This document shows positions 4,523 to 63,107 of a DNA stretch of 64,000 nt, piece after piece. The stretch's first letter is position 1, and the number at the start of each line of letters is the position of its first letter. Both the position numbers and the translations under genes were made by a program. The DNA is taken from positions 1,752 to 65,751 of IMG/VR virus record IMGVR_UViG_3300028284_000005, one strand, 5' to 3'. The notes beneath the pieces were generated by a model. It ran no database searches. It was given only the letters and a program-made list of their open reading frames with translations, and was not told the origin of the DNA. The stretch is from a virus. Taxonomy: Duplodnaviria; Caudoviricetes.

Positions 4523-5102
4523 ATTCACTTAAATTAGGGCTTTCATTATCACCCATTACGCCCACAAACTTTTTTATAAAAACTGACTTTTCCTCATCTG
4601 TTTTTAAAATATATTTATAATACCATGCACTTGTTGCTTGAATCTCACCTAGTCTTTCTTCTATGGTTACACATGCTTCTTCTATTTCTTTAAAGTCTTC
4701 TTCAAATTCACTAACATCTATGTCTAGTTTTACAGCATTAGATATTAATGTAGGTTGATCTCCTTTATCCCATGCTTCAATAGTAGAATCATATATTTCT
4801 TTAAGTTTTAGTTTTTCAGTGTCAGATAGGTCATCTATTTGTTTATCTGGATGGGTTTGAACTACTATTTTTCTAAATAGTTTTTTATATTCTTTTGACA
4901 TTTCCACCTTTTCAGGAGTTTCTTCTTCTTCTGGCTCACTAATAACAGGTTCAGGTTCTTCTCCTCCATTCTTTTCCATCATTACTTCTCTCATGAATTC
5001 TCTACTAGCTTCGTCATGCATTTCATTTACATCTTCTAATTCTTTAATTAAAAAATCATATTTCCGGAGTATTCTACTAAATCTAATATTATTTGTCGCC
5101 AT
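4521..5102 (-). CDS. J-domain-containing protein (atypical, internal J-like domain)
   Basis: YKKLFRKIVVQTHPDK contains the HPD motif. Only convincing minus-strand gene. AATATATA-N4-ATG upstream. Confidence 0.65.
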   Translation of the reverse strand: MATNNIRFSRILRKYDFLIKELEDVNEMHDEASREFMREVMMEKNGGEEPEPVISEPEEEETPEKVEMSKEYKKLFRKIVVQTHPDKQIDDLSDTEKLKLKEIYDSTIEAWDKGDQPTLISNAVKLDIDVSEFEEDFKEIEEACVTIEERLGEIQATSAWYYKYILKTDEEKSVFIKKFVGVMGDNESPNLSE

Positions 5103-5163
5103 CTGTTATATATTTATTAAGATATATACATTAATAGAATAAAGTAATTACTTATAAAAAATA

Positions 5164-5886
5164 ATGAGTTGGATTAAGAAAAAACAAGTCCTTGGCTTAG
5201 ACCATGATTTAGGATCTTTACAATTTAGCTCGATTCTCTTAAAAAGAACAACGTCTTTTAGTGGGAATCCTGGTGAAAGTGAAGCCACTCTAGACAATCA
5301 AACTGCCACTAATGTAACTACAGTTAAAGTTAATGTAAAAGACTCATTAATAGGTAATTCTTATTCTCAATTAGAAGATATTACAAATTTAAACGATTTA
5401 ATAATAAGAAATCAAGAAACTGGAGATGTAGCAATATACTCCATTCAATCAATAACTAGTGAAGTTAACTCTTCTTTCGAAGGTTACTTTATTCTAACAG
5501 TCCAACATTCTTTCGGATATGATAATACATTCACTTCTGGTGAATTAGTTTATTATTTTAGAGGAGTTACTTCATCTAGTATTATTGATTTAATCGATGA
5601 CCAGTCAGCCACAATGGCAGCTAATAACGCTAATATAGCTGGTCAACTTATTACAATGCAGCAGAATATAGATTCAAGTATATTTAAAAAATATGCAGAA
5701 AATATAGATTTTAATGTGCTTGCAAAAACAGTTTATCATAATTTAAACAGTAGTGACGTTATAATACATTTAGTCGATAGCAGTGGTAGAATGTATACTA
5801 ATATTAGTGTAGATAATTACAATTCAAATAATGTTAGAATCACAGTTAATGATTTAGACGTTTATCGAGTTATAATAATGAGCTAA
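5164..5886 (+). CDS. Putative virion fibre-associated protein
   Basis: HNLNSSDVIIHLVD motif as in phage fibre modules. GATATATA at 5121. Confidence 0.5.
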   Translation: MSWIKKKQVLGLDHDLGSLQFSSILLKRTTSFSGNPGESEATLDNQTATNVTTVKVNVKDSLIGNSYSQLEDITNLNDLIIRNQETGDVAIYSIQSITSEVNSSFEGYFILTVQHSFGYDNTFTSGELVYYFRGVTSSSIIDLIDDQSATMAANNANIAGQLITMQQNIDSSIFKKYAENIDFNVLAKTVYHNLNSSDVIIHLVDSSGRMYTNISVDNYNSNNVRITVNDLDVYRVIIMS

Positions 5887-6914
5887 TGAATGTATTAATT
5901 TATACAGGCTATCAAAAAGAACCATACAACTCAAACACTTTAAAGGAAAAAGGATTAGGAGGCACTGAACAGTGTTGTGTCTATCTTGCAAAATATCTTA
6001 AAAATTTTGGTTGGAATGTAACCGTAGGAGGTATGGTTATCGAGGATACTGTTGATGGTATCCAATGGCTTACAACTCAAACAATTCATAAAACAATGTT
6101 TAATAAATTTGATGTTATCATTGGAGTTAGTTATATTCATTTTTTAAAAGAGTTTGAAAAGTATAATTGTAAGAAAATATTTTGGGCGCATAATACTGAT
6201 TATTTTACATGGTGGAATGGAGAGGAATTAAATAATCATAAAGAACTTTTACATAGTCAAGATTTAAATAAAATAGTTTGCCTTACAAATTGGCATAAAA
6301 ATCAATGGGCAAACAAATATAATATAAGCCATGATAAAATAAAAGTTATTGGTAATGGAATAGAAACTGATAATTTTAAAAAACATATTAAAAAACAAAA
6401 TGGTAAATTTATATGGAGCAGTGCACCTGAGAGAGGCTTATATGAATTATTAAATAATTGGAAACATATAAAGGGTTTACTAGAACATGCTGAATTACAC
6501 GTGTTCACACCCTCGTATTCAATAGAAGAGTTTAATAATATAAATCTAGATTTAAAAGGTGTACATTTTAGAGGTAATGTAAATCCAACTGAATTACATA
6601 ATGAAATGTTAAGTGCAGAGTATTGGTTATATTTAACAGACTATGAAGAGACATATTGTATTACAGCTTTAGAAATGCAAATGGCAGGTGTTTTTCCAAT
6701 AACTACAAATGTTGCAGCACTAAATGAAACCGTAAATAGTGGTGTTATATTAAATAAAGAAAACAAGTGGGATAATTTTTATAAAATAATAAACAATTTA
6801 AATAAGCCTCTCAAAGAAAAGGCAATTAATCAATGTAAAGATTTTGCTAAAAAACAAACATGGTTAATGAAATCATTTGATTGGAAAGAATTAATAAATA
6901 ATTTAGATATATAA
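5886..6914 (+). CDS. Glycosyltransferase family 4 (GT-B)
   Basis: GLGGTE, WSSAPERGL and EETYCITALEMQMAG (EX7E) motifs. TAATG overlap with the upstream gene. Confidence 0.85.
   Translation: MNVLIYTGYQKEPYNSNTLKEKGLGGTEQCCVYLAKYLKNFGWNVTVGGMVIEDTVDGIQWLTTQTIHKTMFNKFDVIIGVSYIHFLKEFEKYNCKKIFWAHNTDYFTWWNGEELNNHKELLHSQDLNKIVCLTNWHKNQWANKYNISHDKIKVIGNGIETDNFKKHIKKQNGKFIWSSAPERGLYELLNNWKHIKGLLEHAELHVFTPSYSIEEFNNINLDLKGVHFRGNVNPTELHNEMLSAEYWLYLTDYEETYCITALEMQMAGVFPITTNVAALNETVNSGVILNKENKWDNFYKIINNLNKPLKEKAINQCKDFAKKQTWLMKSFDWKELINNLDI
6906..6913 (+). promoter_or_regulatory. Late promoter GATATATA, 4 nt before ATG
   Basis: GATATATA-ACTT-ATG (6918). Confidence 0.65.
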
Positions 6915-6917
6915 CTT

Positions 6918-7946
6918 ATGCTTAAAACGTTTGAACAATTTATAGTTGAAAAATCTAATAAAGACTATTTTAAAAAGGTTAATTTTTTATTAGCTGGAGA
7001 AAAGATTGAAGGTCTTACTGGTACCAATAATAAAAGAATCTATGGTGAAATAAATGACATTTGTTTAAATGAACTATTCAATACATATTACGCAAAGGGA
7101 GATTATGGAAAAGAATTAAACGTAGATCCAAAACTTCCAATTATATATTATGGAGGTAATAAAAAACAATCTTTAGAATTTTTAGAAAAGTATAAAATCT
7201 CAGAAGATACAATGTATAATTTACCTAAACAAATGAAAGTTAGTGGTAGTAAATCTAAATTTTATAAAGAATTTGAAGATTGTGATTTTATATGTAAGAC
7301 TGTTTATAAAAGAGAAGACGCAAAGGACTTACAATTTCCAGTAATTGCAAAGCCAGATGGAGAACACTCTGGACTAGGTATAGAAATATTTGATAAATAT
7401 GAAGATTTAGAAAAAAGTAAAGGTGAATTTGCAAATTATTCAGAAGCAAAAGATCTTGATAAAGAATTCAGAGTACTATTAATGAATGATAAAATAGTTC
7501 TAGTCCATGAGAGAGTTTCAGCAGGTGAAAATGAAATTAGAGACAAAGAATCAAATGAACAAACTGAATTTACATATGTTGACCAGGACATGTCTAAACT
7601 AGATTTTTTAGAAAAAGTAAATGGAATTTGTAAAACTATTAGAGAAAAGATGAGGTTAGGCCTTTGGTCAATTGATTTAATGATTGATAAAGAAGGTAAA
7701 TGTTGGGTTGCTGAAATAAATTCAGCTTCTGGCATGGCAGCTGATAAAATGGCCAGAGTTTATGTTATGATATATGAAGACTTTTATGGTGAAAAATTAC
7801 CACAAGAATTTAAAAATTATTTAAACGAAGAATATATTAAGCCTATTTATAAAATTAATCTTAAAGAAAATGTAGCTCAAATTAAGAAATCTAAATGCTG
7901 CGTTAATTATCAAAACATCATAGACGGTAAAGAAACAATACTTTAA
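6918..7946 (+). CDS. ATP-grasp (RimK-like) ligase with capsid-targeting-like N-terminus
   Basis: FPVIAKPDGEHSGLGI, EFRVLL, SIDLMID and WVAEINSASG motifs. Starts MLKTFEQFIVE. Confidence 0.8.
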   Translation: MLKTFEQFIVEKSNKDYFKKVNFLLAGEKIEGLTGTNNKRIYGEINDICLNELFNTYYAKGDYGKELNVDPKLPIIYYGGNKKQSLEFLEKYKISEDTMYNLPKQMKVSGSKSKFYKEFEDCDFICKTVYKREDAKDLQFPVIAKPDGEHSGLGIEIFDKYEDLEKSKGEFANYSEAKDLDKEFRVLLMNDKIVLVHERVSAGENEIRDKESNEQTEFTYVDQDMSKLDFLEKVNGICKTIREKMRLGLWSIDLMIDKEGKCWVAEINSASGMAADKMARVYVMIYEDFYGEKLPQEFKNYLNEEYIKPIYKINLKENVAQIKKSKCCVNYQNIIDGKETIL

Positions 7947-7959
7947 TATTGCATATAAT
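7933..7959 (+). promoter_or_regulatory. Putative middle promoter AAAC-N17-TATAAT
   Basis: Exact spacing repeated at 13183, 15270, 17245, 19774 and 56420. Confidence 0.65.
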
Positions 7960-7964
7960 ATTAT

Positions 7965-8702
7965 ATGTATAGTATATCAGAACTTAAGAAGACTCTCGTT
8001 TTAGATATTGAAACGACTAGTCATTATGAAAATTACGAAGATTTTTGTGCTAACCACCCAGGTGAAATGAAATTCTGGGCTAGAAAGGCAGCAGTATGTA
8101 GAAAAGATTTTGCTGAATTAGCAGATAAATCAGATGGTGAAATCTATAAGCAATATGCAGCAGTATATCCTGAATTTGGTAGAATAGTTTGTATCTCAAT
8201 AGGTCAAGTTAAATTTGACGATGATGACAATCCAACATTTTTAAAGAAATCATTCTATGGTTCTGATGAAAGAAAGAATGTTGAGGATTTTATAGAATTT
8301 ATGAGAGCTGTGTTTAATAAAATACCAGATGTTAAAATTCTAGGTCATGATATTAAAAGGTTTGATATGCCTTACATTCTTAAAAAATGTATGATAATGG
8401 GCATTAAAGTTCCAAGTAAATTTCATTTACATGATATGAAGCCATGGGAAAACTGTCTATTAGATACTATTGAAATTTGGAAATGTGGTAGTTGGGGTGC
8501 AGGAGTTTCACTAGAGCATTTAACATTTATGTTAGGAATTTCAAATCCTAAAGAAGCTGATGTATCTTCTAATGAAGATTATGGTGGAATTGCTAGAGCC
8601 TATTGGAATGGAATGATGGAAGAGTTAAAAGATTATTGTGAAGAGGATATTAGAGCCACTATGAACGTTTTATTGAAATTTAGCCATCAACAAACTATTT
8701 AG
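7965..8702 (+). CDS. 3'-5' exonuclease (DnaQ/PolB-exo-like, DEDD)
   Basis: LVLDIET, PEFGRIVCIS, GHDIKRFDMPYI and YCEEDI motifs. Confidence 0.85.
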   Translation: MYSISELKKTLVLDIETTSHYENYEDFCANHPGEMKFWARKAAVCRKDFAELADKSDGEIYKQYAAVYPEFGRIVCISIGQVKFDDDDNPTFLKKSFYGSDERKNVEDFIEFMRAVFNKIPDVKILGHDIKRFDMPYILKKCMIMGIKVPSKFHLHDMKPWENCLLDTIEIWKCGSWGAGVSLEHLTFMLGISNPKEADVSSNEDYGGIARAYWNGMMEELKDYCEEDIRATMNVLLKFSHQQTI

Positions 8703-8717
8703 TTTGATATATAAAAT

Positions 8718-9158
8718 ATGTTAACATTTAAAGAATATAATTTATTAGAATCATTAGACGATTCTAAACAACATGTTTATGTAATTAAAAAAAATGGAAA
8801 AGTAGCATATATCGGCATTGGTACAAAGGCTAGAACACATACTTCATTATCTCAATTTAAAAAGAAAAACGGAGGAGATTGTAAAATCTCAATAGAAAGT
8901 TCTTATTCCACAAAAGAAGCTGCCCTTAAAAAAGAAGCTGAATTAATTAAAAAATATGGTATTAAAGCAGAAGGTGGGAAATTAGATAATGAAAAGTTTG
9001 GAAACACCCCTTCAGATTTTTTAAAGAAAAAACACAGCGATGGTCTTAAAGGTTCTAAGCAATCTAATAATCATAAACAAAATATTAGTAAATCTCTTAA
9101 AGGTACTCCAAAAACTACAGCACATGCTAAGGCAATTAGTGATGCGATGAAAGGTTGA
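8718..9158 (+). CDS. GIY-YIG endonuclease with NUMOD3-like repeats
   Basis: HVYVI...YIGIG..R...EAELI...LDN core. Repeats HKQNISKSLKG and HAKAISDAMKG. Starts MLTFKEYNLLES after GATATATA-N4. Confidence 0.7.
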   Translation: MLTFKEYNLLESLDDSKQHVYVIKKNGKVAYIGIGTKARTHTSLSQFKKKNGGDCKISIESSYSTKEAALKKEAELIKKYGIKAEGGKLDNEKFGNTPSDFLKKKHSDGLKGSKQSNNHKQNISKSLKGTPKTTAHAKAISDAMKG

Positions 9159-9574: not shown

Positions 9575-9745
9575 ATGGACACAGCTAGATATACAGTAAA
9601 ATTATTTAAAGATGGTGAAATTATAGACTATCTAAATACAGACGACGAAGACTTAGCTCATACCACTTCATTCGAATTAATAGAAAAATATGGTAATGGT
9701 AATGTTTGGATATGTAATGTATTTGTTGAATGGATGGTAGGATAA
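9575..9745 (+). CDS. Hypothetical protein (56 aa; not in ORF track)
   Basis: MDTARYTVKLFKDGEIIDYLNTDDEDLAH...WMVG*, with an A-rich leader downstream of the putative early promoter. Confidence 0.65.
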   Translation: MDTARYTVKLFKDGEIIDYLNTDDEDLAHTTSFELIEKYGNGNVWICNVFVEWMVG

Positions 9746-9755
9746 TAAATAAAAT

Positions 9756-9989
9756 ATGAGAATAGATTATAAAATATTAAAAAAGATAGAAAAAGAATAT
9801 GGGTCTGATGATTTTCAAGTAGGCCCATCGGATGAAGGAATGTTTGGGAGCATTATACTTAGATTTGGATATTGGGGAAGAGTTCCATTAGATTCTTTAC
9901 AAAAAACAGTAGGAGACAGGTATACTGTTGAAGAAAGAGAGTATGAAGACGAAGACACAGGGTGGCTATACCACTATATTTTAAAATAA
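9756..9989 (+). CDS. Hypothetical protein
   Basis: Tightly packed ORF with A-rich leader. Confidence 0.65.
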   Translation: MRIDYKILKKIEKEYGSDDFQVGPSDEGMFGSIILRFGYWGRVPLDSLQKTVGDRYTVEEREYEDEDTGWLYHYILK

Positions 9990-11673: not shown

Positions 11674-11933
11674 TAGGCGAAAGTCCACTTGGTGAATTTA
11701 ATGATTTTGAAATGTTTCTAAATATGTTAGTAACTAAACCAATTAATCCTGGTCACGTCTATGAAATGATTTATGATGCTTTAATAAAAGATACTTCATA
11801 TGCAATATATGGAGGTTATCCAAAGGATTTAAAATTAAAAGCCTTAGATTCTTTAATTAATTGGTTTGAATTAACTGAAGAATTTGAAAAATGTAAAGAA
11901 GTAAAAACTATAAAAGACAAGATATGCTCATAG
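11670..11933 (+). CDS. Small protein with C-terminal UVR-like motif
   Basis: WFELTEEFEKCKEVKTIKD. Confidence 0.6.
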   Translation: MIGESPLGEFNDFEMFLNMLVTKPINPGHVYEMIYDALIKDTSYAIYGGYPKDLKLKALDSLINWFELTEEFEKCKEVKTIKDKICS

Positions 11934-12115
11934 TAAATGTAAAGAAAGATATAGAAAAGGCGTTAAAGCAATATAAGCGTAAAGTTATTAAGACTAAGCA
12001 ATCTAGAAAACTTAATGCAAAACGATACCACACCAAAAAATCAGTACTCCGTAGAGAGGAAGTCAAAAATGCCCAATATATTGAGAGAATGTATGGCAAC
12101 AAAAATAATGACTAA
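11924..12115 (+). CDS. rpsU: Ribosomal protein bS21 (phage-encoded)
   Basis: MLIVNVKKDIEKALKQYKRKV...YHTKKSVLRREEVKNAQY matches the Flavobacteriia-type bS21 pattern. Confidence 0.9.
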   Translation: MLIVNVKKDIEKALKQYKRKVIKTKQSRKLNAKRYHTKKSVLRREEVKNAQYIERMYGNKNND

Positions 12116-13182: not shown

Positions 13183-13209
13183 AAACCTTTTTCATTTTTT
13201 TTATATAAT
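13183..13209 (+). promoter_or_regulatory. Putative middle promoter AAAC-N17-TATAAT
   Basis: AAAC 13183, TATAAT 13204, ATG 6 nt later. Confidence 0.65.
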
Positions 13210-13215
13210 TAATAT

Positions 13216-13848
13216 ATGAAAAAAGCAAAACACATTATTTTAAAATCTTACATGAACGAAAACCTCATTGAGGTAGGATTAGATGAAGCAGGAAGAGGAG
13301 CATTGGCTGGACCAGTCGTGGTTGCAGGTGTTATAATGCCAAAAGGATTTACACATCCTTTAATTAAAGATTCTAAATTATTAAATGAAGGTGAAAGAAG
13401 AGAAGCAAGAGCATTGGTGTTAGATAATGCAATTTCATATTCAATTAAAGCCATTGATGTAGATTATATTGAAAAAACAAATATTTTAAAGGCTACATTA
13501 TTTGGAATGAAAGAATGTTTAGATGGAATTAAAATGAAAGGAGATCAATTTGATTTTATTCTTGTAGATGGAGATCAATTCCATGGTTGGAATGGACTTC
13601 CATTTGAAACAGTAGTTGGAGGTGATAATAAATACACATCTATTGCTGCAGCTTCTATACTTGCAAAAACAAGTAGAGATTTAATTATGAAAAAATTAAA
13701 CGAAGGCCATGAACAATATGGTTGGAATTCCAATAAAGGTTATGGAACTAGTGCACATCGAAATGCAATTAAACAGGATGGAGCAACTGAACATCACAGA
13801 ATGAGTTTCATAAATCACATGTTAACCTCAACTGTGAGTTTATTTTGA
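13216..13848 (+). CDS. rnhB: Ribonuclease HII
   Basis: GLDEAGRGALAGPV, DSK, SIAAASILAK, NKGYGT and HRMSF motifs. Confidence 0.95.
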   Translation: MKKAKHIILKSYMNENLIEVGLDEAGRGALAGPVVVAGVIMPKGFTHPLIKDSKLLNEGERREARALVLDNAISYSIKAIDVDYIEKTNILKATLFGMKECLDGIKMKGDQFDFILVDGDQFHGWNGLPFETVVGGDNKYTSIAAASILAKTSRDLIMKKLNEGHEQYGWNSNKGYGTSAHRNAIKQDGATEHHRMSFINHMLTSTVSLF

Positions 13849-15086: not shown

Positions 15087-15285
15087 TGACCTCTTAAATG
15101 AATTACAGTTTATAAAAAAGGTAATTCAAAGTTGCAAAACAGGTCAACAATTAGAAATATCAATTGATTGGATGAATCGATGGAAGCACAATCGCAAGAA
15201 ATGGATCGAATCTAAAGGAATGCCATATTTATTAAAAGAGTTTGAAAGTATTGAATTCTTTAAAGAATTAAACAATTTACAATAA
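15052..15285 (+). CDS. Hypothetical protein
   Basis: Operon packing. Confidence 0.55.
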   Translation: MKKREKEVQILNDLLNELQFIKKVIQSCKTGQQLEISIDWMNRWKHNRKKWIESKGMPYLLKEFESIEFFKELNNLQ

Positions 15286-15296
15286 TTTTATATAAT
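15270..15296 (+). promoter_or_regulatory. Putative middle promoter AAAC-N17-TATAAT
   Basis: AAAC 15270, TATAAT 15291, ATG 5 nt later. Confidence 0.65.
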
Positions 15297-15301
15297 ATTA
15301 G

Positions 15302-15526
15302 ATGTTACAAGCAATTTCAATATACCTGCTAATCGGAATCTTAATTAATGTATTAGTTGATTTAATGTACGACTGGATGGGTAATAATAAAATAGACTAT
15401 AATTTAGTAGACACTAACATGTCCAATGAAAAATGGAATAATTTTACAAAGATCGTCGTTACTCTATTATGGCCAATATGCATTGTTTACGTGGCAATAC
15501 AAATTTTTAACGAATATACAAAATGA
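15302..15526 (+). CDS. Two-TM membrane protein
   Basis: YLLIG...LLWP hydrophobic pattern. Confidence 0.6.
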   Translation: MLQAISIYLLIGILINVLVDLMYDWMGNNKIDYNLVDTNMSNEKWNNFTKIVVTLLWPICIVYVAIQIFNEYTK

Positions 15527-16473: not shown

Positions 16474-16528
16474 AATAATTAATATATTATAATGATATAT
16501 AATTAATAACAAAAAAAACTATTTTAAA

Positions 16529-22094: not shown

Positions 22095-22132
22095 ACTTTA
22101 AGTGATATATAAATAAAAATACACAATACTAC

Positions 22133-24858: not shown

Positions 24859-24880
24859 ATTAATTTAGATACATACTATA

Positions 24881-26398
24881 ATGGATTTAGACAATAATAT
24901 ATTACAGGTCGTTGAACCTAGTATTAGAGCCACTGAGGTTAAATTCGGAACAGCCGATGAAGATAAAGGTGCTGATAAAAGAACAAAATCAGTTGGTGTT
25001 AATCAGCCTTATGTTATAATAAACGGTTATGAATTTAAAGGTTCTGATATTTTATATTGTAAATTAAGCGTAAATGGTTTTTATCCTAAATTAACATTAT
25101 CCCTATCAGACTCTAGAATGGCATTTGACGTTGGTACATATCCTAGAGATGGAGACAATATTACATTATTAATTAATTCAAAAAATCAAGATACTTTTAA
25201 AAGTATTCATATGGATTTTGATATTACATCAGTTAGTTCTCCATCAACTCCTAGTGGATTTGCAGGAGATACTGCTAGAGATTATAATTTTCAAGGAGTT
25301 TGTAAAATACCCGGTTTATTTGCAGAAGATTGTAAATCTTATGGTGAAGGTACAAGTTTAGAACATATTGAAAAGGTGGCAACTGAATTAAAATTAGGTT
25401 TAGCAACTAATATTGACGTCACTGATGATTTACAAAATAGAATTCAGCCATATAGTACTAAATTTGATTTTATTAAAGATGTTGTAAATTATTCATATGT
25501 TGGTGAAGAGTGTTTTCAAACTTTCTACATAGATCAATATTATAATTTAAATTTTGTTGAGTTAAATAAAGTTTTTAATTCTAAAAGATTAAGCGGAGAT
25601 GATATGCAAAATAGTATTACGTCTTATGCTAATTCAATTGAAGTAGATAGAACTTCAGAAAATTCAGATAATATTGAAACTAAAGTAATGTTAACAAATC
25701 ATTTAGCAGCTGATAAAACTGGAAATAAAATATGGGCATATAATCTTAAAAATAATTCAAGTAGAATTTCATTATCAAATGGCTATAAAAGAATTTTACA
25801 AATGTGGGATAATTTAGAAGAAGCAAGTAGCCCTGAATATGGGGATAGTAGACTTATTGAATTTGACATTGAGGCGTTTAGTACAAAGAAGGAAAACCTA
25901 CTTGACATGGAAGAGCCTTTAAAGGGTAGAAAAGATGAAGATTTTTATGAGTCACAAACTAAACATAAATGGGTTGGTAGAATGCAAGACTATTCTTTAG
26001 ATGGCAATGTACATTTAAATCATAAATACTCAGTCTTAAATAATTACCAAAATATAAAGGAATTAGAAAAGATGGTATTAGTCGTAGACTTAGAAACATT
26101 TAATCCAGGCTTATATAGAAATCAAATGGTGCCAGTTATTATATACAATGTAGAAGATAATAAAGTGCAAATGTCAAGAGATAATGATGCATTGTTAAAA
26201 GAAAAAGGAGTTAAGCCTGAAAATAAGTCATTTGATTTTGAAGATGATGGTGAAAGTGATATGACATTAGACGATTTTACGTCTGGTCATTATGTGATTG
26301 GAGGAATAGAATATATATATGAAACAGGAAATCCTACAATTAGACAAAGATTAACTTTGTTAAGGAGAGAATGGCCTGTTAGAGCAAACTCTTTATAA
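24881..26398 (+). CDS. Putative baseplate hub (gp27/GpD-like)
   Basis: Lies between gp53-like and gp5-like genes. C-terminal SGHYVIGGIEY...QRLTLLRR is typical of hub proteins. Confidence 0.6.
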   Translation: MDLDNNILQVVEPSIRATEVKFGTADEDKGADKRTKSVGVNQPYVIINGYEFKGSDILYCKLSVNGFYPKLTLSLSDSRMAFDVGTYPRDGDNITLLINSKNQDTFKSIHMDFDITSVSSPSTPSGFAGDTARDYNFQGVCKIPGLFAEDCKSYGEGTSLEHIEKVATELKLGLATNIDVTDDLQNRIQPYSTKFDFIKDVVNYSYVGEECFQTFYIDQYYNLNFVELNKVFNSKRLSGDDMQNSITSYANSIEVDRTSENSDNIETKVMLTNHLAADKTGNKIWAYNLKNNSSRISLSNGYKRILQMWDNLEEASSPEYGDSRLIEFDIEAFSTKKENLLDMEEPLKGRKDEDFYESQTKHKWVGRMQDYSLDGNVHLNHKYSVLNNYQNIKELEKMVLVVDLETFNPGLYRNQMVPVIIYNVEDNKVQMSRDNDALLKEKGVKPENKSFDFEDDGESDMTLDDFTSGHYVIGGIEYIYETGNPTIRQRLTLLRREWPVRANSL

Positions 26399-27898: not shown

Positions 27899-27913
27899 AG
27901 TAATATATAATAT

Positions 27914-29174: not shown

Positions 29175-29230
29175 TAAAATAATTTAACAGATATATAAAT
29201 CATAAGTTTTAACCTTTAAAAAATAAAAAA

Positions 29231-30430: not shown

Positions 30431-30479
30431 TTTAGGTAATAAATAAATGTGATATATAAATAAATTTATTTTATATTGC

Positions 30480-43951: not shown

Positions 43952-43994
43952 TAGAGATATATAATCTTAAGTAATATAAAAATAAGATACACAT

Positions 43995-51943: not shown

Positions 51944-52741
51944 ATGTTTAAAAGTTTAGAAATAAAGCCAATTCATTTTATAGTAACTATTTTATTGCTT
52001 ATTATTTTATTAATGCATCAATGTAATAGGACTTCTAAGATAAAGGCTATTAATAAAGGCTTAGAGGTTAAAGTAGAAAGAGCGGGACAAAATATAATTG
52101 CAAGTCAAGATAGTATAAAATATTATAAAAATGAAAATGACTTCTTAGTTAGTGAAATTACAGCATATGTGTTTACTGCAGAAGAATTAACAAATGATGC
52201 TAATGACTTATATGCAAAATACGAAGATGCACTAGGAGATATTAAAAAACTTAAAAAGGTAAATCAATTGCTAAGTGCAGAAATTAACATTAAAGAAGTT
52301 GATACAGTTTACGCTTTTATAGAAAGTGATTCAGTTTTATATTTTAATGATTCTACTGATTATGGAGATGGCAATTGGAGAAAATGGAATAGTAAGATTA
52401 GTCTGTTCGAAAAGGATAATAAATTAACAGGAGCATTGAATAGTTTTAGTTATGAACAAGTAATTAAATTATACTCAAGCATCGAGGAAGTTGAAGGAAT
52501 TAAAAAAATTAATATTGCTACAAAATACCCTGGCTTAACATTTAATAGCATTGAAGGAATTAGTCTCATTGAAGATGAGATAAATAAAGCAAAGGAAGAA
52601 TATAAAAGTAGAGTTAAATTAGGTTTAGGCGTTGGCTATGGTTTAACCTTTACAAAAGACAATAGAGTTTATCATGGACCTCAACTTGGTTTATTTTTAA
52701 CATATACTCCAAAGTTGTTCAATTTTAAAAGAGATAAATAA
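51944..52741 (+). CDS. Membrane-anchored coiled-coil protein, possible spanin-like
   Basis: N-terminal TM ending near Cys, coiled coil, C-terminal amphipathic beta hairpin GLGVGYG...QLGLFLTY. Confidence 0.5.
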   Translation: MFKSLEIKPIHFIVTILLLIILLMHQCNRTSKIKAINKGLEVKVERAGQNIIASQDSIKYYKNENDFLVSEITAYVFTAEELTNDANDLYAKYEDALGDIKKLKKVNQLLSAEINIKEVDTVYAFIESDSVLYFNDSTDYGDGNWRKWNSKISLFEKDNKLTGALNSFSYEQVIKLYSSIEEVEGIKKINIATKYPGLTFNSIEGISLIEDEINKAKEEYKSRVKLGLGVGYGLTFTKDNRVYHGPQLGLFLTYTPKLFNFKRDK

Positions 52742-52744
52742 ATT

Positions 52745-54736
52745 ATGGCAGAAAGTTCAAGATATTACAAAATAGATAATGATATACTTTTAGAGTTTAT
52801 CTATCACGATCAAGGTGACACTACACCCTATGAGGTAGATGTTGATGACAATGGTAGTGAGATAAAAGTATTAGACACTGTCCAAGGAGATTCAACTCAA
52901 ACTAGACATTTAATAAATGAACTAGGTAGTGACGTTGTGAATTTCGATGTCACTGAAGACGGTGCATATATTGCAATTGAAAATTTTGCAGCAAGAACCT
53001 TATTATTAGAAATTGGTAAAACATATAAGTTTGATCTTAGCACCCTATCAGTTCCTGGTGATTTTGCAATTACTGGAACTAACAATGGACCTGGGCTAGT
53101 AGGAACTATTTTTGAATATATCCCTGCAAATACTGGAAATTATACATACTCTCTAACTAATTTCATTGGTGGAAAGGTTACAATTGGCAATACTGCAAAT
53201 CCACTGTTTGCCACGCCTGATGAGGAAACAGGGAATAGTATCGTAACAGGTTCTGGCAGCATTGGCAGATACATGGGCGTAAATGTAAATGAAAACAAAT
53301 ATGCTTTATTAGATAATAATAATATTTTTATAAATAGCATTGAGTGGAATGGATCTAATTCTGCAGATTTATTAGCAAGTCAAACAGCTGCGACTGCTGC
53401 TATTACTAAAGTAAAATATGATAAAGTTAGACTACATTTAAGAAGTGGCTTTAGTTTTGCTGCAAGAGGATATGAAGGTTTCTTATTTGAAATAACAACT
53501 GATAGAACTTCTGAAGTAAAAAACTTTTTAACACAGATCGTTTACTTAAATACATCTAGTTTTGAAATAAAAAATCCTAGACCTTTTATTTTAAGTGAAA
53601 CATTATATAGTAGTTTTATTGAAGTTAAATTACCTACGCTAATTAATCAATTTAGTGATTTTGAAAATTTCTTCTATGATAATGGTTCAGGGATTAGTGA
53701 TTTAGATCCTACTTCTAATTTTAGTGCATCGTTAAAGTTAATTGATAGAGTTGAAGATACTGCTGGAATTGATTATTTCTATACAGGTGAAGAGACAAAC
53801 TTTTTAATATCTAGGGAAGATGAATTTCAAGATTTTACAGTAGTTGTTGAGGAAGCAAATGATGGGGATTATTTTTCAATATATGGTGAAAAGGATGGAA
53901 GTGCTGCTGATTTTGAAAGTTATATTATAAATAGAATCGCAACGAGTTCAGATGACATTAGTGTTATTTATGATATTACAGTAAATGAATTAATAGGAAC
54001 TAGTTTCATAGAAACATATGCTACAACTTTAACACAAACTCAGGATTTTGAAGAGCACACTGAATTTAGACCTATTATTAAAAATGCAAATACTGCAATC
54101 AGTTTTTTAATAGATGTCACTATGAGAATTTATAATCAAACTGATAATACTCAAATTGTAAAAAGAGCTAGTTTAATCTATAATAATCCTGCTAAATATG
54201 GTAAAAGATTATTAAAGGTAAATATAGCTTCTACTGCTAATTTAACTAGAGTTTATAATACTCTTCCAAATTTACAAGCTACTAGAAATGTTGCACAAGT
54301 TATTAATTCAAGTTTGCCTAAAGCTCAGGTTAAATATGCGCCCGCATTTATTGAAAGATTAAATATTATAGTAAATGTCGGTAACGTTACAATAGATGAT
54401 GGCCAAATTAGTTCTATTAATAATGACAATGGTTTAGAAATATCTCCATTTGATATGTATGTTAAATTTAATATTTCTAAAATTGAAGGTGGAGAAAGAA
54501 AAACAATTTCATTTACTAATTTAAAAAATGTTAGATTAAATTTTAGCAATGGAATTTATTTTAATAACATTACATCTTTTAAAGAGGTTGATATGTCAAA
54601 TGGTGAAGTTCTTTTTAAAATAGATAAAGCTAACTCAGTTAAATTACAAGGTTTAAGTAATAAAACATACTATATTTCAATAGATAGTGGTAGTAATGAA
54701 ACTATGGTATTTAAAGGAGATTATAACGCTATATGA
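52745..54736 (+). CDS. Putative virion structural protein
   Basis: GATAAATA-N4-ATG, structural context. Confidence 0.55.
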   Translation: MAESSRYYKIDNDILLEFIYHDQGDTTPYEVDVDDNGSEIKVLDTVQGDSTQTRHLINELGSDVVNFDVTEDGAYIAIENFAARTLLLEIGKTYKFDLSTLSVPGDFAITGTNNGPGLVGTIFEYIPANTGNYTYSLTNFIGGKVTIGNTANPLFATPDEETGNSIVTGSGSIGRYMGVNVNENKYALLDNNNIFINSIEWNGSNSADLLASQTAATAAITKVKYDKVRLHLRSGFSFAARGYEGFLFEITTDRTSEVKNFLTQIVYLNTSSFEIKNPRPFILSETLYSSFIEVKLPTLINQFSDFENFFYDNGSGISDLDPTSNFSASLKLIDRVEDTAGIDYFYTGEETNFLISREDEFQDFTVVVEEANDGDYFSIYGEKDGSAADFESYIINRIATSSDDISVIYDITVNELIGTSFIETYATTLTQTQDFEEHTEFRPIIKNANTAISFLIDVTMRIYNQTDNTQIVKRASLIYNNPAKYGKRLLKVNIASTANLTRVYNTLPNLQATRNVAQVINSSLPKAQVKYAPAFIERLNIIVNVGNVTIDDGQISSINNDNGLEISPFDMYVKFNISKIEGGERKTISFTNLKNVRLNFSNGIYFNNITSFKEVDMSNGEVLFKIDKANSVKLQGLSNKTYYISIDSGSNETMVFKGDYNAI

Positions 54737-55284: not shown

Positions 55285-55300
55285 AATTGATATATAATTT

Positions 55301-55669
55301 ATGAAAACATTTATAGAATATTTAGAGGAAAGTAAAGTTACTTCCGATGAAATGAATCTTTTAACAGAGGGTCTTCAACAAGAATGGACTCCTGAATTAG
55401 AAGAAAAGGTAGATCAAGCAGTTGATTCTTTTTTAAACGAATACAGAGATGAAGATGGAAATCTAGATATTAATAGGTTTAATAACGAAATGACAAGTGA
55501 AGGTCTTTTAGGTTCCATTGTAGGTGGTCTTGCTGGATTTGCTTTAGGAAAATCTATTGGAAAAATGGTAGCTAAAGTATTAGGTGTTCAAAAAGGTATT
55601 TTATATGATTTATTAACTTCAAGACTTGTTGGAACTGCAATCGGAGCTTCAATTGGTAAAAGGTTTTAA
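55301..55669 (+). CDS. Putative head-internal protein with C-terminal glycine zipper
   Basis: Starts MKTFIEYLEES. Ends GLLGSIVGGLAGFALG...VGTAIGASIG. Confidence 0.6.
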   Translation: MKTFIEYLEESKVTSDEMNLLTEGLQQEWTPELEEKVDQAVDSFLNEYRDEDGNLDINRFNNEMTSEGLLGSIVGGLAGFALGKSIGKMVAKVLGVQKGILYDLLTSRLVGTAIGASIGKRF

Positions 55670-56419: not shown

Positions 56420-56446
56420 AAACTATTTCAATTAAAGATATATAAT
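56420..56446 (+). promoter_or_regulatory. Putative middle promoter AAAC-N17-TATAAT overlapping a late GATATATA
   Basis: AAAC 56420, TATAAT 56441, GATATATA 56437. A second near-copy is AAAC-N17-TATATT at 56574. Confidence 0.6.
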
Positions 56447-61366: not shown

Positions 61367-61381
61367 AAATAAAACATAGAC

Positions 61382-62647
61382 ATGTTATTAACTTACGAAC
61401 AATTTCTAGTCGAAAAGGCTCAGATAGTAGAGGGTAATTTGATTTTAGAAGGAGGAGCTGCAGGCCACATGCCTCACCCCTTTGATTATAATGATTTAAC
61501 TTTCCAAGATTTTAAAACTATTGTTACAAATTCATTACAAGGTGAAATACATTTTGAAGAAGGTCCTACTGAAAAAACAGATGGTCAAAACTTCTTTGTT
61601 ACAGTAAAGGATGGTCAAGTTCTTTTCTCAAGAAATAAAGGGCAACTAATGGCACCTGTATCTTTAGATGGGGTTATTAAAATGTTTACGGGCCATGCAT
61701 CAAAGTTAGTTGAAGATACTTTTATCTATGCTGCAACAGATTTAGAAGCTGCATTATTAAGTTTAAGCGATCATCATGAATTTAAGAATGGTCAAAACTT
61801 TCTTAATATGGAGTTAATTTATTCTAAGAACCCTAACGTGATTAATTATGACAGAGATGTTATTCAATTTCACGGAATGGCAGAAACTGATGGCAAAGGT
61901 AATATAGTTAATATGTCACAACAGACAGGTGCAAAACTTGCAAGACTTCTTAAAGGTATAGAGGCAGATGTACAAAAGACATTTACAATTATTCCTCCAC
62001 AAATATTAAAACTTCAAAAAAACTTAGATTTTGAAAAAAGACAAAGTTATTATCATAGTAAATTAAATGACTTAAGAGATGAGTTTAATTTATCAGACGG
62101 TGACGAAGTTAAAATGTATCATGAAGCATGGTGGAGAAGAGAAATTGAAAAAGATTTTGCAGATATTTCAAGTGATTTAAAGGAAGGTTTATTTTTAAGA
62201 TGGGCATACAATGACAAGCAAACTATGAATATGGTTGCTATGAAAAAGATTGCTACTCCTGAACAAATGAAAAAAATCAAAGAGTTTGACAAGATAAAAG
62301 GTAAAAAGTATAAGCAAAATATTTTACCATTTGAAAACTTATTTTTAGAGTTAGGAAAAGATGTATTATTAAATGCAAGTAATTTTGTTGCTGCAAATCC
62401 TGATTTAGAAAAGAAAAATCTACACAATAAGATTAGAAAAGCAGCTGCTAACGTTAAACTTAATGGTGATTTAAAACAAGTCGCTAAGATAGAAGCAGAA
62501 TTAGAAAGATTAGAAAGTATTGGAGGTATTGAAGGTATTGTACCAACTGAGGGAATAGTGTTTAAATACAAAGGTAAGATTATGAAACTTACAGGCACAT
62601 TTGCTGCAATCAATCAGCTTATGGGTATAATAAAATATGGAAGATAA
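61382..62647 (+). CDS. Ligase-fold nucleotidyltransferase (DUF6267-like) with capsid-targeting-like N-terminus
   Basis: MLLTYEQFLVE start, EGGAAGHMPHPFD, motif I TEKTDG, SRNK, MELI, motif IV EGIVFK and KLTG. Confidence 0.7.
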   Translation: MLLTYEQFLVEKAQIVEGNLILEGGAAGHMPHPFDYNDLTFQDFKTIVTNSLQGEIHFEEGPTEKTDGQNFFVTVKDGQVLFSRNKGQLMAPVSLDGVIKMFTGHASKLVEDTFIYAATDLEAALLSLSDHHEFKNGQNFLNMELIYSKNPNVINYDRDVIQFHGMAETDGKGNIVNMSQQTGAKLARLLKGIEADVQKTFTIIPPQILKLQKNLDFEKRQSYYHSKLNDLRDEFNLSDGDEVKMYHEAWWRREIEKDFADISSDLKEGLFLRWAYNDKQTMNMVAMKKIATPEQMKKIKEFDKIKGKKYKQNILPFENLFLELGKDVLLNASNFVAANPDLEKKNLHNKIRKAAANVKLNGDLKQVAKIEAELERLESIGGIEGIVPTEGIVFKYKGKIMKLTGTFAAINQLMGIIKYGR

Positions 62648-62654
62648 ATATATT

Positions 62655-63107
62655 ATGAAAAAGATAAAACTATTTGAAGAATTCTTAAACGAGGCAACGA
62701 TGGACAATTTCAAACCGGAGGTATTGTCTAATAAAGATAAAGTAGATATGAAGCTTTTTAAAAGTTTAATGCCTAGAACTGCTAAAACAGTTAAAGACGC
62801 TGAACGTAGAATTCAAACATGGAAAGGTAACAAAATGTTTGTACACTACCAAGCATTTACAGTTCAGTCAAATGGTAATAAACCAGACTTGCCAACATAT
62901 AGATTTGGTAATTCACAATATTGGTTAAACGATACTCAATTAGGTTGGGCAGGTAGAGCAGGTGAAAAAGTAAACATTACTTTATTAACAATAACTGATG
63001 TAACCGATCCTGATAATGAAAAGATGCTAGGAGAACTTTACGTTAATACCGATACATATTTACAAGAGCACAATATAGTATTTACAGAATTAGATAACGT
63101 ATCATAA
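62655..63107 (+). CDS. Putative head-internal protein (start revised to 62655)
   Basis: GATAAATA-TATT-ATG. Starts MKKIKLFEEFLNEA. Confidence 0.65.
   Translation: MKKIKLFEEFLNEATMDNFKPEVLSNKDKVDMKLFKSLMPRTAKTVKDAERRIQTWKGNKMFVHYQAFTVQSNGNKPDLPTYRFGNSQYWLNDTQLGWAGRAGEKVNITLLTITDVTDPDNEKMLGELYVNTDTYLQEHNIVFTELDNVS

What the first reader, a model, noticed from the sequence alone, without database searches (positions are those of the whole stretch)
5102..62657. Late promoter octamer sits exactly 4 nt before ATG at eight genes: a leaderless-mRNA programme in a phage encoding both bS1 and bS21
Seen: RATAWATA-N4-ATG at 6906/6918, 8706/8718, 27902/27914, 32648/32660, 52733/52745, 55289/55301, 62643/62655 and on the minus strand 5114-5107/5102. 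GATACATA-N5-ATG occurs at 24868. The same octamer precedes other late genes at longer distances (1003, 5121, 16494, 22104, 29190, 30451, 43956, 60822), so it behaves like a promoter rather than a ribosome-binding site. Middle-type TATAAT boxes are also only 5-6 nt from ATG (7965, 13216, 15302). Established: T4 late promoters are a single TATAAATA -10 element with initiation a few nt downstream; leaderless mRNAs are initiated by 70S ribosomes and are favoured when S1/S21 function is altered. Inference: many transcripts start at or next to the AUG, and the phage's shortened bS1 (29231) plus bS21 (11924) may remodel the 30S platform to favour them over host mRNAs.
Basis: partly seen in the sequence, partly recalled or inferred. 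Interest (0 to 1): 0.88.

Follow-up and report, generated by a model that had tools for sequence, protein, structure and literature searches.

The report
Phage late promoters abutting start codons
A family of large marine phages places a T4-style late promoter box exactly four bases before the start codon of some genes, so those messages probably begin at the AUG, but no evidence ties this to the phage's ribosomal protein genes.

Summary
RATAWATA-N4-ATG occurs 9 times in the window, against 1.23 expected. Among 69 gene starts, 8 have the octamer at exactly 4 nt and none at 0-3, 5 or 6 nt. Three null models give 0.2-0.7.

The core GATATATA is strand-specific (14 forward, 0 reverse) and has no -35 partner. 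It lies either 4 nt or about 14-48 nt from the start codon. In 13 related records (1.53 Mb) GATATATA-N4-ATG occurs 46 times, N3 once and N5 twice.

The contig is only 26% complete. Ten of the 13 relatives encode a gp55-like late sigma. In two divergent family members an intrinsic terminator sits directly before a box at 4-5 nt.

Best reading (about 0.6): these are T4-type late promoters placed so that transcription starts at or next to the AUG. No 5' ends could be mapped.

The bS1 and bS21 homologues are real. Their proposed role in favouring leaderless mRNAs is untested, and published work points the other way. This scan has noted similar promoter-at-ATG layouts in other phages.

The parts
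6906..6920 (+). GATATATAA-N3-ATG in front of a RimK-like ATP-grasp gene (6918-7946). The last three bases of the nonamer are the stop codon of the upstream gene.
   Evidence: kept in 3 close relatives
8706..8720 (+). GATATATAA-N3-ATG in front of a 146-aa nuclease-like gene (8718-9158), inside a 15-nt intergenic gap
55289..55303 (+). GATATATAA-N3-ATG in front of a 122-aa gene (55301-55669). This is the best conserved site at 4 nt.
   Evidence: In orthologues, 28 of 32 distinct upstream sequences keep the box at 4 nt, 2 have it at 22-24 nt and 2 lack it.
27902..27916 (+). AATATATAA-N3-ATG in front of a baseplate-like gene (27914-28633)
   Evidence: Box variants (AATATATA, GATATATA, GATAAATA) stay at 4 nt in relatives down to about 52% protein identity, with 5 or 6 nt in two relatives.
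32648..32662 (+). GATAAATAA-N3-ATG in front of a gene with weak gp25-like similarity (32660-33013)
   Evidence: Conserved at 4 nt in relatives while the box varies (GATAAATA, AATAGATA, GATAGATA, AATATATA).
52733..52747 (+). GATAAATAA-N3-ATG in front of a 663-aa gene. This is a weaker site, and its TAA is the stop codon of the upstream gene.
   Evidence: Of 22 distinct orthologous upstream sequences, 2 have the box at 4 nt, 3 at other distances and 17 have none.
9744..9758 (+). AATAAATAA-N3-ATG in front of a 77-aa ORF.
   Evidence: seen only in near-identical relatives
62643..62657 (+). GATAAATAT-N3-ATG at an internal in-frame ATG (62655) of ORF 62637-63107. An alternative start at 62637 has TATAAT 5 nt upstream.
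5100..5114 (-). AATATATAA-N3-ATG in front of the only minus-strand gene (4521-5102), in a 61-nt divergent intergenic region. A bidirectional terminator lies at 4500-4517.
1003..1010 (+). GATATATA box about 260 nt upstream of the 1068-aa gene
5121..5128 (+). GATATATA box 35 nt before ATG 5164
16494..16501 (+). GATATATA box 27 nt before ATG 16529
22104..22111 (+). GATATATA box 21 nt before ATG 22133; conserved in relatives
29190..29197 (+). GATATATA box 33 nt before the bS1-like gene; conserved in relatives
30451..30458 (+). GATATATA box 21 nt before ATG 30480; conserved in relatives
43956..43963 (+). GATATATA box 31 nt before the 1950-aa gene
56437..56444 (+). GATATATA box in the 342-nt gap before the SSB gene, followed by a small ORF of about 43-45 aa
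60822..60829 (+). GATATATA box 33 nt before ATG 60863
24868..24883 (+). GATACATA-N5-ATG, a degenerate box. Relatives have GATAAATA at 4 or 5 nt here.
7933..7967 (+). AAAC-N17-TATAAT with 5 nt to ATG 7965 (exonuclease gene). This belongs to a second, two-part promoter-like class.
13183..13218 (+). AAAC-N17-TATAAT with 6 nt to ATG 13216 (RNase HII gene)
15270..15304 (+). AAAC-N17-TATAAT with 5 nt to ATG 15302
11924..12115 (+). bS21 homologue, 63 aa
   Evidence: Pfam PF01165: 33.9 bits against a cut-off of 27. TIGR00030: 25.9 bits, below its cut-off of 28.95.
29231..30430 (+). bS1 homologue, 399 aa. It aligns in order with E. coli bS1 residues 18-343, which I recall as domains 1-4.
   Evidence: full-length relatives at 51 viral loci

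Best explanation
GATATATA(A), more loosely RATAWATA, is the -10-only late promoter of a family of large marine phages. The hosts are probably Bacteroidota. The box is read by host RNA polymerase carrying a phage gp55-like sigma factor. This sigma gene is seen in relatives; the window's contig is only about a quarter of the genome.

The promoter is used in two layouts. In one it lies about 14-48 nt before the ATG and gives a short A-rich leader without a Shine-Dalgarno sequence. In the other it lies exactly 4 nt before the ATG. There the box occupies positions -12 to -5 relative to the A of the start codon, so transcription should begin at or within one base of the AUG, giving a leaderless mRNA. 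In the window this second layout serves 8-9 of 69 genes: baseplate parts and several proteins that share a similar short N-terminal leader.

Shown here: the motif, its strand bias, the exact spacing, its conservation, and sigma genes in relatives. Inferred: that it is a promoter, which sigma reads it, and where transcription starts.
For: 1. Spacing spike. 8 of 69 genes have the box at 4 nt, against 0.2-0.7 expected. Across 13 related records (1.53 Mb), N4 gives 46 matches, N3 gives 1 and N5 gives 2; the reversed-pattern controls give 1, 2 and 2.

2. Promoter-like behaviour. GATATATA is 14 forward and 0 reverse in the contig, 43 to 5 in G001 and 411 to 15 over all loci. 12 of the 14 are intergenic. 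There is no conserved -35 element.

3. Bimodal distance. Among non-redundant family sites, 18 lie at 4 nt, 1 lies at 5-13 nt, and the rest spread over 14-48 nt. This is the pattern expected for 5' UTR lengths of zero or at least 10 nt.

4. Start-site signal. In 83 non-redundant long-leader sites the base 12 nt after the G is a purine in 69, the next base is A in 58, and the base before it is G in only 1. In the 4-nt layout that purine position is the A of the ATG.

5. Register. The Flavobacterium sigma-A box TAnnTTTG lies at -12 to -5, and 5.5% of F. psychrophilum mRNAs are leaderless (PMC9723704, passages).

6. The spacing follows the ATG. Orthologues of gene 55301 whose N-terminus is three residues longer still have the box at 4 nt. 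Two orthologues carry it at 22-24 nt instead, so this gene keeps a promoter of its own.

7. Recurrence. 17 unrelated protein families in the sampled loci have the box at 4 nt.

8. Terminator context. In L155 and L003, two unrelated genes have an intrinsic terminator hairpin and T-tract, then 10-13 nt, then GATATATA, then 4-5 nt, then ATG. That leaves no room for any other promoter.

9. Sigma factors. A gp55-like sigma (phrog_234, E from 1e-10 to 1e-13) is present in 10 of 13 relatives, including the collinear G001. An ECF-like sigma is present in G001-G003. No RNA polymerase beta subunit was found in those three.

10. T4 late promoters are a -10-like element with no -35 conservation (PMC7892883). 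The T4 box TATAAATA matches GATAAATA at 7 of 8 positions (PMC1524935).
Against: - No transcript 5' ends are available. The two RNA-type runs are assembled contigs of relatives.
- With T4's own geometry (box at -13 to -6), +1 would fall on the T of the ATG, not the A. The one-base question is open, and reading the spike as selection for +1 = A is partly circular.
- All but one of the sites at 4 nt lie in tight junctions inside same-strand gene rows. Those genes could also be translated from read-through transcripts.
- The degenerate octamer is not enriched overall. Some sites are weak or poorly conserved: 52745 (17 of 22 orthologous upstream sequences lack the box), 9756 and 62655.
- In G001 five further GATATATA boxes lie 6-9 nt before an ATG, read by eye; three of them were checked. 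They would give leaders of 2-5 nt, so the short class is not strictly leaderless.
- No sigma gene lies in the window's own contig, although that contig is only 26% complete.
- Which sigma reads which box is inferred, not shown.
Confidence: 0.6

Rival explanations
1. The box at 4 nt acts in the RNA, not the DNA. It would be an A/U-rich translation-initiation element at a fixed distance from the AUG, standing in for a ribosome-binding site in a host that ignores Shine-Dalgarno sequences, perhaps bound by host or phage S1. It would work on polycistronic read-through transcripts.
For: All but one of the sites at 4 nt lie in 3-19-nt junctions within rows of same-strand genes. The phage's start regions are A-rich and G-poor, with no Shine-Dalgarno signal (composition table). 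S1-bearing huge phages rarely have Shine-Dalgarno sequences (PMC7162821). The weaker variants (AATAAATA, GATAAATA) are not strand-exclusive.
Against: The same 9-mer occurs 14-48 nt upstream of other genes, where it cannot be a ribosome-binding site. Orthologues of gene 55301 can carry it at 22-24 nt. Genes without the box use poly-A-like leaders, not alternating AT. The spacing tolerance is essentially zero (46 to 1 to 2), tighter than I recall for known ribosome-binding elements. The terminator-box-ATG units need a promoter at that spot.
Confidence: 0.15
2. The boxes are late promoters, but the fixed 4-nt spacing is inherited rather than selected. A promoter-ATG-leader cassette was copied in front of cargo genes, and the transcription start need not coincide with the AUG.
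For: In G001, three of six genes at 4 nt and two genes at 8 nt have the same kind of leader. T4 register would put +1 one base past the A.
Against: The number of residues between the Met and the conserved leader core differs among paralogues and orthologues, yet the box stays 4 nt from the ATG. Five window sites, and most of the 17 families, have unrelated N-termini. The spacer letters vary freely while the spacer length does not.
Confidence: 0.15
3. The motif is an RNA processing site. An endonuclease would cut at or beside GAUAUAUAA and trim leaders, producing the leaderless or short-leader forms after transcription.
For: Strand specificity and intergenic position fit an RNA-level signal as well as a promoter.
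Against: No candidate nuclease was linked to the motif. The lack of a -35 element together with a gp55-like sigma in relatives fits a promoter. Terminator-box-ATG units would leave nothing to process.
Confidence: 0.05
4. One reading: the phage's shortened bS1 and its bS21 remodel host 30S subunits so that leaderless phage mRNAs are preferred over host mRNAs.
For: Both homologues are real. The bS1 homologue sits behind its own GATATATA box. S1, S21 and the spike occur together in the family: S1 in 11 of 13 records, S21 in 7 of 13, the spike in 13 of 13.
Against: All 13 records are fragments of one family, so this co-occurrence is shared ancestry and not an independent association. In E. coli, ribosomes that lack bS1 and bS21 are the ones that favour leaderless mRNAs (PMC12186496). 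Most of the phage's own genes have leaders. A 41-kb stretch of a huge phage with an S1 homologue has the box at 4 nt in 1 of 47 genes. In G002 the S1 gene reads as three pieces, yet 7 N4 sites remain.
Confidence: 0.08

Closest known systems
Bacteriophage T4 late transcription (gp55 sigma, TATAAATA box)
   Same: A single A/T-rich octamer in the -10 position with no -35 conservation (PMC7892883). The variant GATAAATA matches TATAAATA at 7 of 8 positions, differing only at the first, poorly conserved one (PMC1524935). Relatives encode a protein of the 'late sigma transcription factor' family phrog_234. The box precedes baseplate and other virion-type genes.
   Different: The commonest form is GATATATA(A). 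A subset of boxes sits 4 nt from the ATG. As I recall, T4 late mRNAs carry Shine-Dalgarno leaders. T4's box lies at -13 to -6, one base further from +1 than the leaderless reading needs. Dependence on a sliding clamp and a gp33-like co-activator was not examined.
Leaderless transcripts of Thermus phages YS40 and Lalka27a
   Same: [quoted passage not shown]
   Different: In those phages most transcripts are leaderless and were mapped experimentally. Here it is about 12% of the genes in the window and is only predicted. The promoter consensus and the host phylum also differ.
Flavobacterium sigma-A promoters (TAnnTTTG at -12 to -5)
   Same: An eight-base box in the same register relative to +1. 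Host ribosomes do translate some leaderless mRNAs: 5.5% in F. psychrophilum (PMC9723704) and about 3.7% of B. thetaiotaomicron 5' UTRs are shorter than 10 nt (PMC7366714).
   Different: Only 3 of the 6 specified positions match (A, T, T), so the host primary sigma is unlikely to read the box unaided.
Phage-encoded bS1 and bS21 in huge phages and Bacteroidota phages
   Same: Phage copies of S1 and S21 occur in genomes that lack Shine-Dalgarno sequences and have been proposed to redirect initiation (PMC7162821; PMC9723584, abstract and passages).
   Different: Neither paper mentions leaderless mRNAs: the word occurs 0 times in the main text of either. This genome is a member of a phage family of about 200 kb or more, in which the S1 gene lies among baseplate genes.
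Other promoter-at-ATG phage layouts noted earlier in this scan
   Same: Phage-specific late promoter boxes at a fixed short distance from ATGs without a Shine-Dalgarno sequence, some with a small phage sigma (e1-3328936, e1-5926538, e1-5679344).
   Different: Those are different motifs, phage groups and hosts. They are unchecked AI notes and not independent evidence.

Membership tests
T4-type (gp55-dependent) late promoter | A single A/T-rich octamer close to TATAAATA in the -10 position | tested here: met
   RATAWATA matches at 6-7 of 8 positions; consensus taken from PMC1524935
T4-type (gp55-dependent) late promoter | No conserved -35 element | tested here: met
   83 non-redundant sites show no information upstream of about -10 nt from the box
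T4-type (gp55-dependent) late promoter | The phage encodes a gp55-family sigma | tested here: inconclusive
   phrog_234 matches in 10 of 13 related records, including the collinear G001. None in the window's contig, which is 26% complete.
T4-type (gp55-dependent) late promoter | Activation by a sliding clamp and a gp33-like co-activator | not tested
   No search was made for clamp or gp33 homologues
T4-type (gp55-dependent) late promoter | Drives genes expressed late in infection | not testable with these tools
   No time-course data exist. Downstream genes include baseplate-like ones, but one box also lies before the SSB gene region (56437).
Leaderless mRNA | The primary 5' end of the transcript is at the A of the start codon | not testable with these tools
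   Only assembled contigs of relatives were available
Leaderless mRNA | The -10 element lies at the standard distance from the start codon | tested here: inconclusive
   The box lies at -12 to -5 if the A is +1, as for the Flavobacterium sigma-A box. With T4 geometry (-13 to -6) it is one base off.
Leaderless mRNA | No other promoter or leader is available to the gene | tested here: met
   Met for two cases in relatives, where a terminator is followed directly by the box and the ATG (L155, L003). Not shown for the window's own sites.
Ribosomal protein bS1 | An ordered array of S1 domains that aligns with bS1, including the N-terminal ribosome-binding domains | tested here: inconclusive
   Aligns with E. 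coli bS1 residues 18-343 (E 5.6e-37). Every NCBIfam rpsA equivalog is far below its cut-off, the best being 156.5 bits against 524. It lacks the C-terminal domains and has about 74 extra N-terminal residues.
Ribosomal protein bS1 | Binds the 30S subunit | not testable with these tools
   No complex prediction was run
Ribosomal protein bS21 | Scores above the family cut-off | tested here: inconclusive
   Pfam PF01165: 33.9 bits, above its cut-off of 27. TIGR00030: 25.9 bits, below its cut-off of 28.95.

The most novel reading that the evidence does not exclude
The four-domain phage bS1 binds host ribosomes through its N-terminal domains but lacks the C-terminal RNA-binding domains. It would act, perhaps together with the phage bS21, as a dominant-negative or specialising subunit late in infection. 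Initiation on host mRNAs that depend on S1 would be shut down. The leaderless late messages, which need no S1, would escape; these encode baseplate parts and proteins with the shared N-terminal leader. Promoter-to-ATG spacing and ribosome remodelling would then be two halves of a single host take-over mechanism in a phylum that ignores Shine-Dalgarno sequences.
Probability: 0.07. Interest if true: 0.85.

Novelty: new variant of a known kind. Interest (0 to 1): 0.5.

Why it matters
If 5' ends confirm it, this would be a T4-type, gp55-like late promoter system that makes leaderless mRNAs for a defined subset of virion-associated genes. It would occur in a widespread family of large marine phages whose probable hosts do not use Shine-Dalgarno sequences.

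It gives a sharp, testable rule: the box, then exactly 4 nt, then ATG (46 against 1 and 2 for the neighbouring spacings). The rule could improve start-codon and promoter annotation in these uncultured phages. It also offers a defined set of predicted leaderless mRNAs for studying initiation on Bacteroidota ribosomes.

Leaderless phage transcripts, T4-type promoters and phage S1/S21 genes are each already known. The novelty lies in the combination and in the exactness of the spacing.

Tried and rejected
RNA evidence. One search for RNA runs found two seawater runs holding 5-6% of the sampled words. Laying them gave only assembled contigs of relatives at 85-95% likeness, with no starts, ends or strand information. 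Nothing can be said about transcription start sites or expression from these.

Close relatives among deposited phages. blastn found none; coverage was 8% or less. Protein-level hits were to huge uncultured phages, Lak phages (host written as Prevotella) and Flavobacterium phage MaF61 at 23-38% identity. This is only indirect support for a Bacteroidota host.

Sigma factor or polymerase in the window's contig. Pfam, PHROGs and NCBIfam scans of about 70 proteins found none. Six-frame searches with PF04542, PF08281 and phrog_234 also found none. This is uninformative because the contig is 26% complete. The PF00940 search matched nothing in the control genomes either, so it says nothing.

Sigma-70-type two-hexamer promoters are not enriched: 115 found against 109.1 expected in window 1-20000.

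Co-occurrence of the spike with S1 and S21. All 13 records are fragments of one family, so presence together is shared ancestry and absences are uninformative. I rejected this as a test of the S1/S21 idea.

The phage S21 paper (PMC9723584) has no occurrence of 'motif', 'promoter', 'UTR' or 'leaderless' in its main text. A search for 'Flavobacterium phage', 'Cellulophaga phage', 'late promoter', 'gp55' and 'leaderless' listed no paper (15 of 97 listed) combining a Bacteroidota phage with late promoters or leaderless mRNAs. The search with 'leaderless', 'Flavobacterium' and 'bS21' also found none in its 9 listed titles and abstracts. Subscription journals are not covered by these searches.

Chance or composition as an explanation was rejected. 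Bias from start calling was considered, because the box contains a TAA in frame with an ATG 4 nt downstream. It was rejected because counts made without any ORF criterion show the same spike.

Supplementary files were not opened. Supplementary Table 8 of PMC7162821, the appendices of PMC9723704 and Fig. S5 of the Lalka27a preprint may bear on ribosome-binding-site and start-site statements.

The distances in G001 outside the 4-nt class were read by eye from the printed matches. Eight of these sites were checked by script.

Full report
**What the window is**

The window is 64,000 of the 65,751 bases of a single linear viral contig. CheckV rates that contig 26% complete. About 69 genes can be called, and all but one (4521-5102) lie on the + strand. 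G+C content is about 30%. No deposited phage is close at the DNA level.

Protein-level relatives are huge uncultured phages, Lak phages and Flavobacterium phage MaF61, at 23-38% identity. Start regions are A-rich and G-poor, with no Shine-Dalgarno signal. Together this gives indirect support for a Bacteroidota host. The host was not determined.

IMG/VR holds many relatives: 51 loci for the S1-like protein and 162 matches for the 663-aa protein. One of them, G001, is a collinear record of 204,977 nt rated 75% complete. It carries the same S1-like protein at 92% identity and extends about 150 kb beyond the end of the window.

- RATAWATA-N4-ATG occurs 9 times, against 1.23 expected.
- Over 69 curated starts, 8 have the octamer exactly 4 nt upstream and none at 0-3, 5 or 6 nt.
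- Three controls that preserve upstream composition, or composition at each position, expect 0.2-0.74. None of the 5000 shuffles reached 8.
- The degenerate octamer is not enriched in the window as a whole: 56 found, 61 expected. What is unusual is where it sits.
- The exact word GATATATA is different. It occurs 14 times on the + strand and never on the - strand, and 12 of the 14 are intergenic.
- Three of the 14 lie at 4 nt (6906, 8706, 55289). Seven lie 21-35 nt before an ATG. One lies about 260 nt before the 1068-aa gene, and one lies in the gap before the SSB gene.

**The signal is a property of the whole phage family**

- Across 13 large related records (1.53 Mb), GATATATA-N4-ATG occurs 46 times. 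N3 occurs once and N5 twice. The reversed-pattern controls give 1, 2 and 2. Three of the records are near-identical, so the 46 include some repeats.
- These counts use no gene calls. That removes a possible bias: the box contains a TAA that is in frame with an ATG 4 nt downstream.
- Pooling all fetched loci, GATATATA is 411 on the gene strand and 15 on the other. After removing redundancy, 18 sites lie 4 nt before a gene start, one lies at 5-13 nt, and the rest spread over 14-48 nt.
- At orthologous junctions the spacing is kept while the letters change. Gene 32660 has GATAAATA, AATAGATA, GATAGATA or AATATATA, almost always at 4 nt. Gene 27914 behaves similarly.
- For gene 55301, 28 of 32 distinct upstream sequences keep the box at 4 nt, two have it at 22-24 nt and two lack it. 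Orthologues with an N-terminus three residues longer still have the box 4 nt from their own ATG.
- Seventeen unrelated protein families in the sampled loci show the arrangement.
- Not every site is equally solid. The 52745 site is absent from 17 of 22 distinct orthologous upstream sequences. The 9756 site is seen only in near-identical relatives. Site 62655 is an internal ATG.

**Why the box is most likely a promoter**

- It is strand-specific and intergenic. In 83 non-redundant long-leader sites nothing is conserved where a -35 element would lie.
- Downstream there is a weak start-site signature. Counting the G as position 0, position 8 is A or C, position 11 is almost never G (1 of 83), position 12 is a purine in 69 of 83, and position 13 is A in 58 of 83.
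- T4 late promoters are exactly this kind of element: a -10-like box with no -35 conservation, read by gp55 (PMC7892883, passages; PMC1524935, passages). The variant GATAAATA matches the T4 box at 7 of 8 positions.
- The window's contig has no sigma gene. However, 10 of 13 related records encode a protein of about 127 aa that matches the PHROG family 'late sigma transcription factor' with E from 1e-10 to 1e-13. G001 is one of them, at a position beyond the end of this contig.
- G001-G003 also encode an ECF-like sigma with regions 2 and 4. No RNA polymerase beta subunit was found in them.
- In a 41-kb stretch of Flavobacterium phage MaF61, GATAAATA is the most frequent upstream 8-mer (7 of 45 genes). 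It lies 8-28 nt before the starts and never at 4 nt.

**Why the 4-nt layout probably gives leaderless mRNAs**

- With 4 nt of spacer the octamer occupies -12 to -5 relative to the A of the ATG. That is the position reported for the sigma-A box TAnnTTTG in Flavobacterium psychrophilum, where 5.5% of mRNAs are leaderless (PMC9723704, passages).
- The conserved purine at position 12 of the long-leader promoters coincides with the A of the ATG.
- The bimodal distance distribution translates into predicted leaders of zero or at least about 10 nt, with a gap between. That is how mapped 5' UTR lengths look, as I recall, in bacteria that use leaderless mRNAs.
- The strongest sequence-only evidence comes from two unrelated genes in two divergent family members (L155 and L003). 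In each, an intrinsic terminator hairpin and T-tract is followed after 10-13 nt by GATATATA, then 4 or 5 nt, then the ATG of a 228-aa ORF. There is no room for any other promoter.
- The window's only minus-strand gene is similar. It is closed off downstream by a bidirectional terminator. Its only box of this type lies 4 nt before its ATG, although a host-type promoter further upstream cannot be excluded.

**What argues against this reading**

- No 5' ends could be examined. The two RNA-type runs hold only contigs of relatives.
- T4's own box lies at -13 to -6. That would put +1 on the T, so the reading depends on a one-base difference that sequence alone cannot settle.
- All but one of the sites at 4 nt sit in 3-19-nt junctions within rows of genes, so read-through transcripts could also serve those genes.
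- In G001 five boxes lie 6-9 nt from an ATG, which predicts leaders of 2-5 nt (by eye; three checked).
- I put the promoter-at-AUG reading at about 0.6. The rivals are a translation element acting in the RNA (0.15), an inherited promoter-ATG-leader cassette without selection on the start site (0.15) and an RNA processing site (0.05).

**A second promoter-like class shows the same habit**

AAAC-N17-TATAAT occurs 8 times on the + strand and never on the - strand, against 2.3 expected. Its TATAAT lies 5, 6 and 5 nt before the ATGs of 7965, 13216 and 15302, and 36 nt before 17308. Its AAC-type upstream half suggests, by recall of ECF promoter features only, that the ECF-like sigma might read it. 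This was not tested.

**The ribosomal protein part of the finding**

- ORF 11924 matches the Pfam S21 family above its cut-off (33.9 against 27 bits). It falls below the TIGR00030 cut-off.
- ORF 29231 is a genuine bS1 homologue. It aligns in order with E. coli bS1 residues 18-343 (E 5.6e-37). It scores far below every rpsA equivalog cut-off and is conserved at full length at 51 viral loci.
- Phage S1 and S21 genes, and their association with genomes lacking Shine-Dalgarno sequences, are already in print (PMC7162821, passages; PMC9723584, abstract and passages).
- Nothing here links them to leaderless mRNAs. The family-wide co-occurrence (S1 in 11 of 13 records, S21 in 7 of 13, the spike in 13 of 13) is shared ancestry among fragments.
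- A 41-kb stretch of a huge phage with an S1 homologue shows the box at 4 nt in 1 of 47 genes.
- In G002 the S1 gene reads as three pieces while 7 N4 sites remain.
- In E. coli it is ribosomes lacking bS1 and bS21 that favour leaderless mRNAs (PMC12186496, passages).
- A dominant-negative version of the idea is not excluded. I put it at about 0.07.

**Comparison with what is known, and verdict**

The closest systems are T4 late transcription and the leaderless transcripts of Thermus phages YS40 and Lalka27a (bioRxiv 10.64898/2026.04.20.719267, one passage). This scan has already noted several analogous promoter-at-ATG layouts in other phages.

The finding is a new variant of a known kind: a gp55-type box fused to start codons at an unusually exact spacing, in an uncultured family of large phages that probably infect Bacteroidota. 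The promoter reading is well supported, the leaderless reading is plausible, and the ribosome-remodelling reading is unsupported.

Noticed in passing
whole contig; relatives G001-G015: The contig is a fragment, rated 26% complete by CheckV, of a phage whose relatives reach at least 205-212 kb. Gene-content statements about 'this phage' that rest on the window alone are unsafe.
   Followed up: partly
L146:1423-2031 and L151:1498-1881 (both in G001): Close relatives encode two sigma-like proteins: a 202-aa ECF-like sigma (regions 2 and 4) and a 127-aa gp55-like 'late sigma' (phrog_234). Both lie beyond the end of the window's contig.
   Followed up: partly
window 29199-29230: The leader of the bS1-like gene holds a CTTTAA-containing element about 12-18 nt before the ATG. 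It is kept in relatives down to about 30-40% protein identity. It may be a translational operator, given that, as I recall, E. coli rpsA is autoregulated.
   Followed up: no
window 6918, 8718, 55301, 62655; G001 sites in L153, L154, L157, L158: Proteins behind short-distance boxes often begin with a similar short leader (K-T/L-F-x-E-F/Y...E). It may mark a promoter-ATG-leader cassette for virion cargo.
   Followed up: partly
window 9485-9574; L146:1030-1130 and 1325-1420: An element of about 90 nt (...TTTCACGGGTC...TATATTAGTATTATAAT...) precedes ORF 9575. It occurs twice in G001, including directly before the ECF-like sigma gene. It may be an early promoter or regulatory cassette.
   Followed up: partly
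window 56328-56669: A 342-nt gap before the SSB gene holds a GATATATA box, a small ORF of about 43-45 aa, and a tandem array of TAAAT/TAAAG units (56624-56668).
   Followed up: partly
G002:C1:75511-76682: In this 76%-complete relative the bS1-like gene reads as three overlapping pieces in different frames. The cause could be frameshifts, a pseudogene or assembly error.
   Followed up: no
L143 (Flavobacterium phage MaF61, record positions 53969-95225): GATAAATA (TGATAAATAT) is the most frequent upstream 8-mer, found before 7 of 45 genes at 8-28 nt. This suggests that T4-like Flavobacterium phages use a related late box without the 4-nt layout.
   Followed up: partly
window 6918-7946: An ATP-grasp protein with a weak match to the PHROG family 'ribosomal protein S6 glutaminyl transferase' (E 2.3e-9) lies behind an exact GATATATAA-N3-ATG. 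It is another ribosome-related candidate besides bS1 and bS21.
   Followed up: no
window 1245-2810 (-) and 44045-45187 (-): Two long antisense ORFs (521 and 380 aa) lie inside the 1068-aa and 1950-aa genes. They are probably shadow ORFs of repetitive fibre-like genes.
   Followed up: no
window 4500-4517: A bidirectional intrinsic terminator (AGGGGAC-TTCG-GTCCCCT) lies between the convergent genes 1270-4476 and 4521-5102.
   Followed up: no
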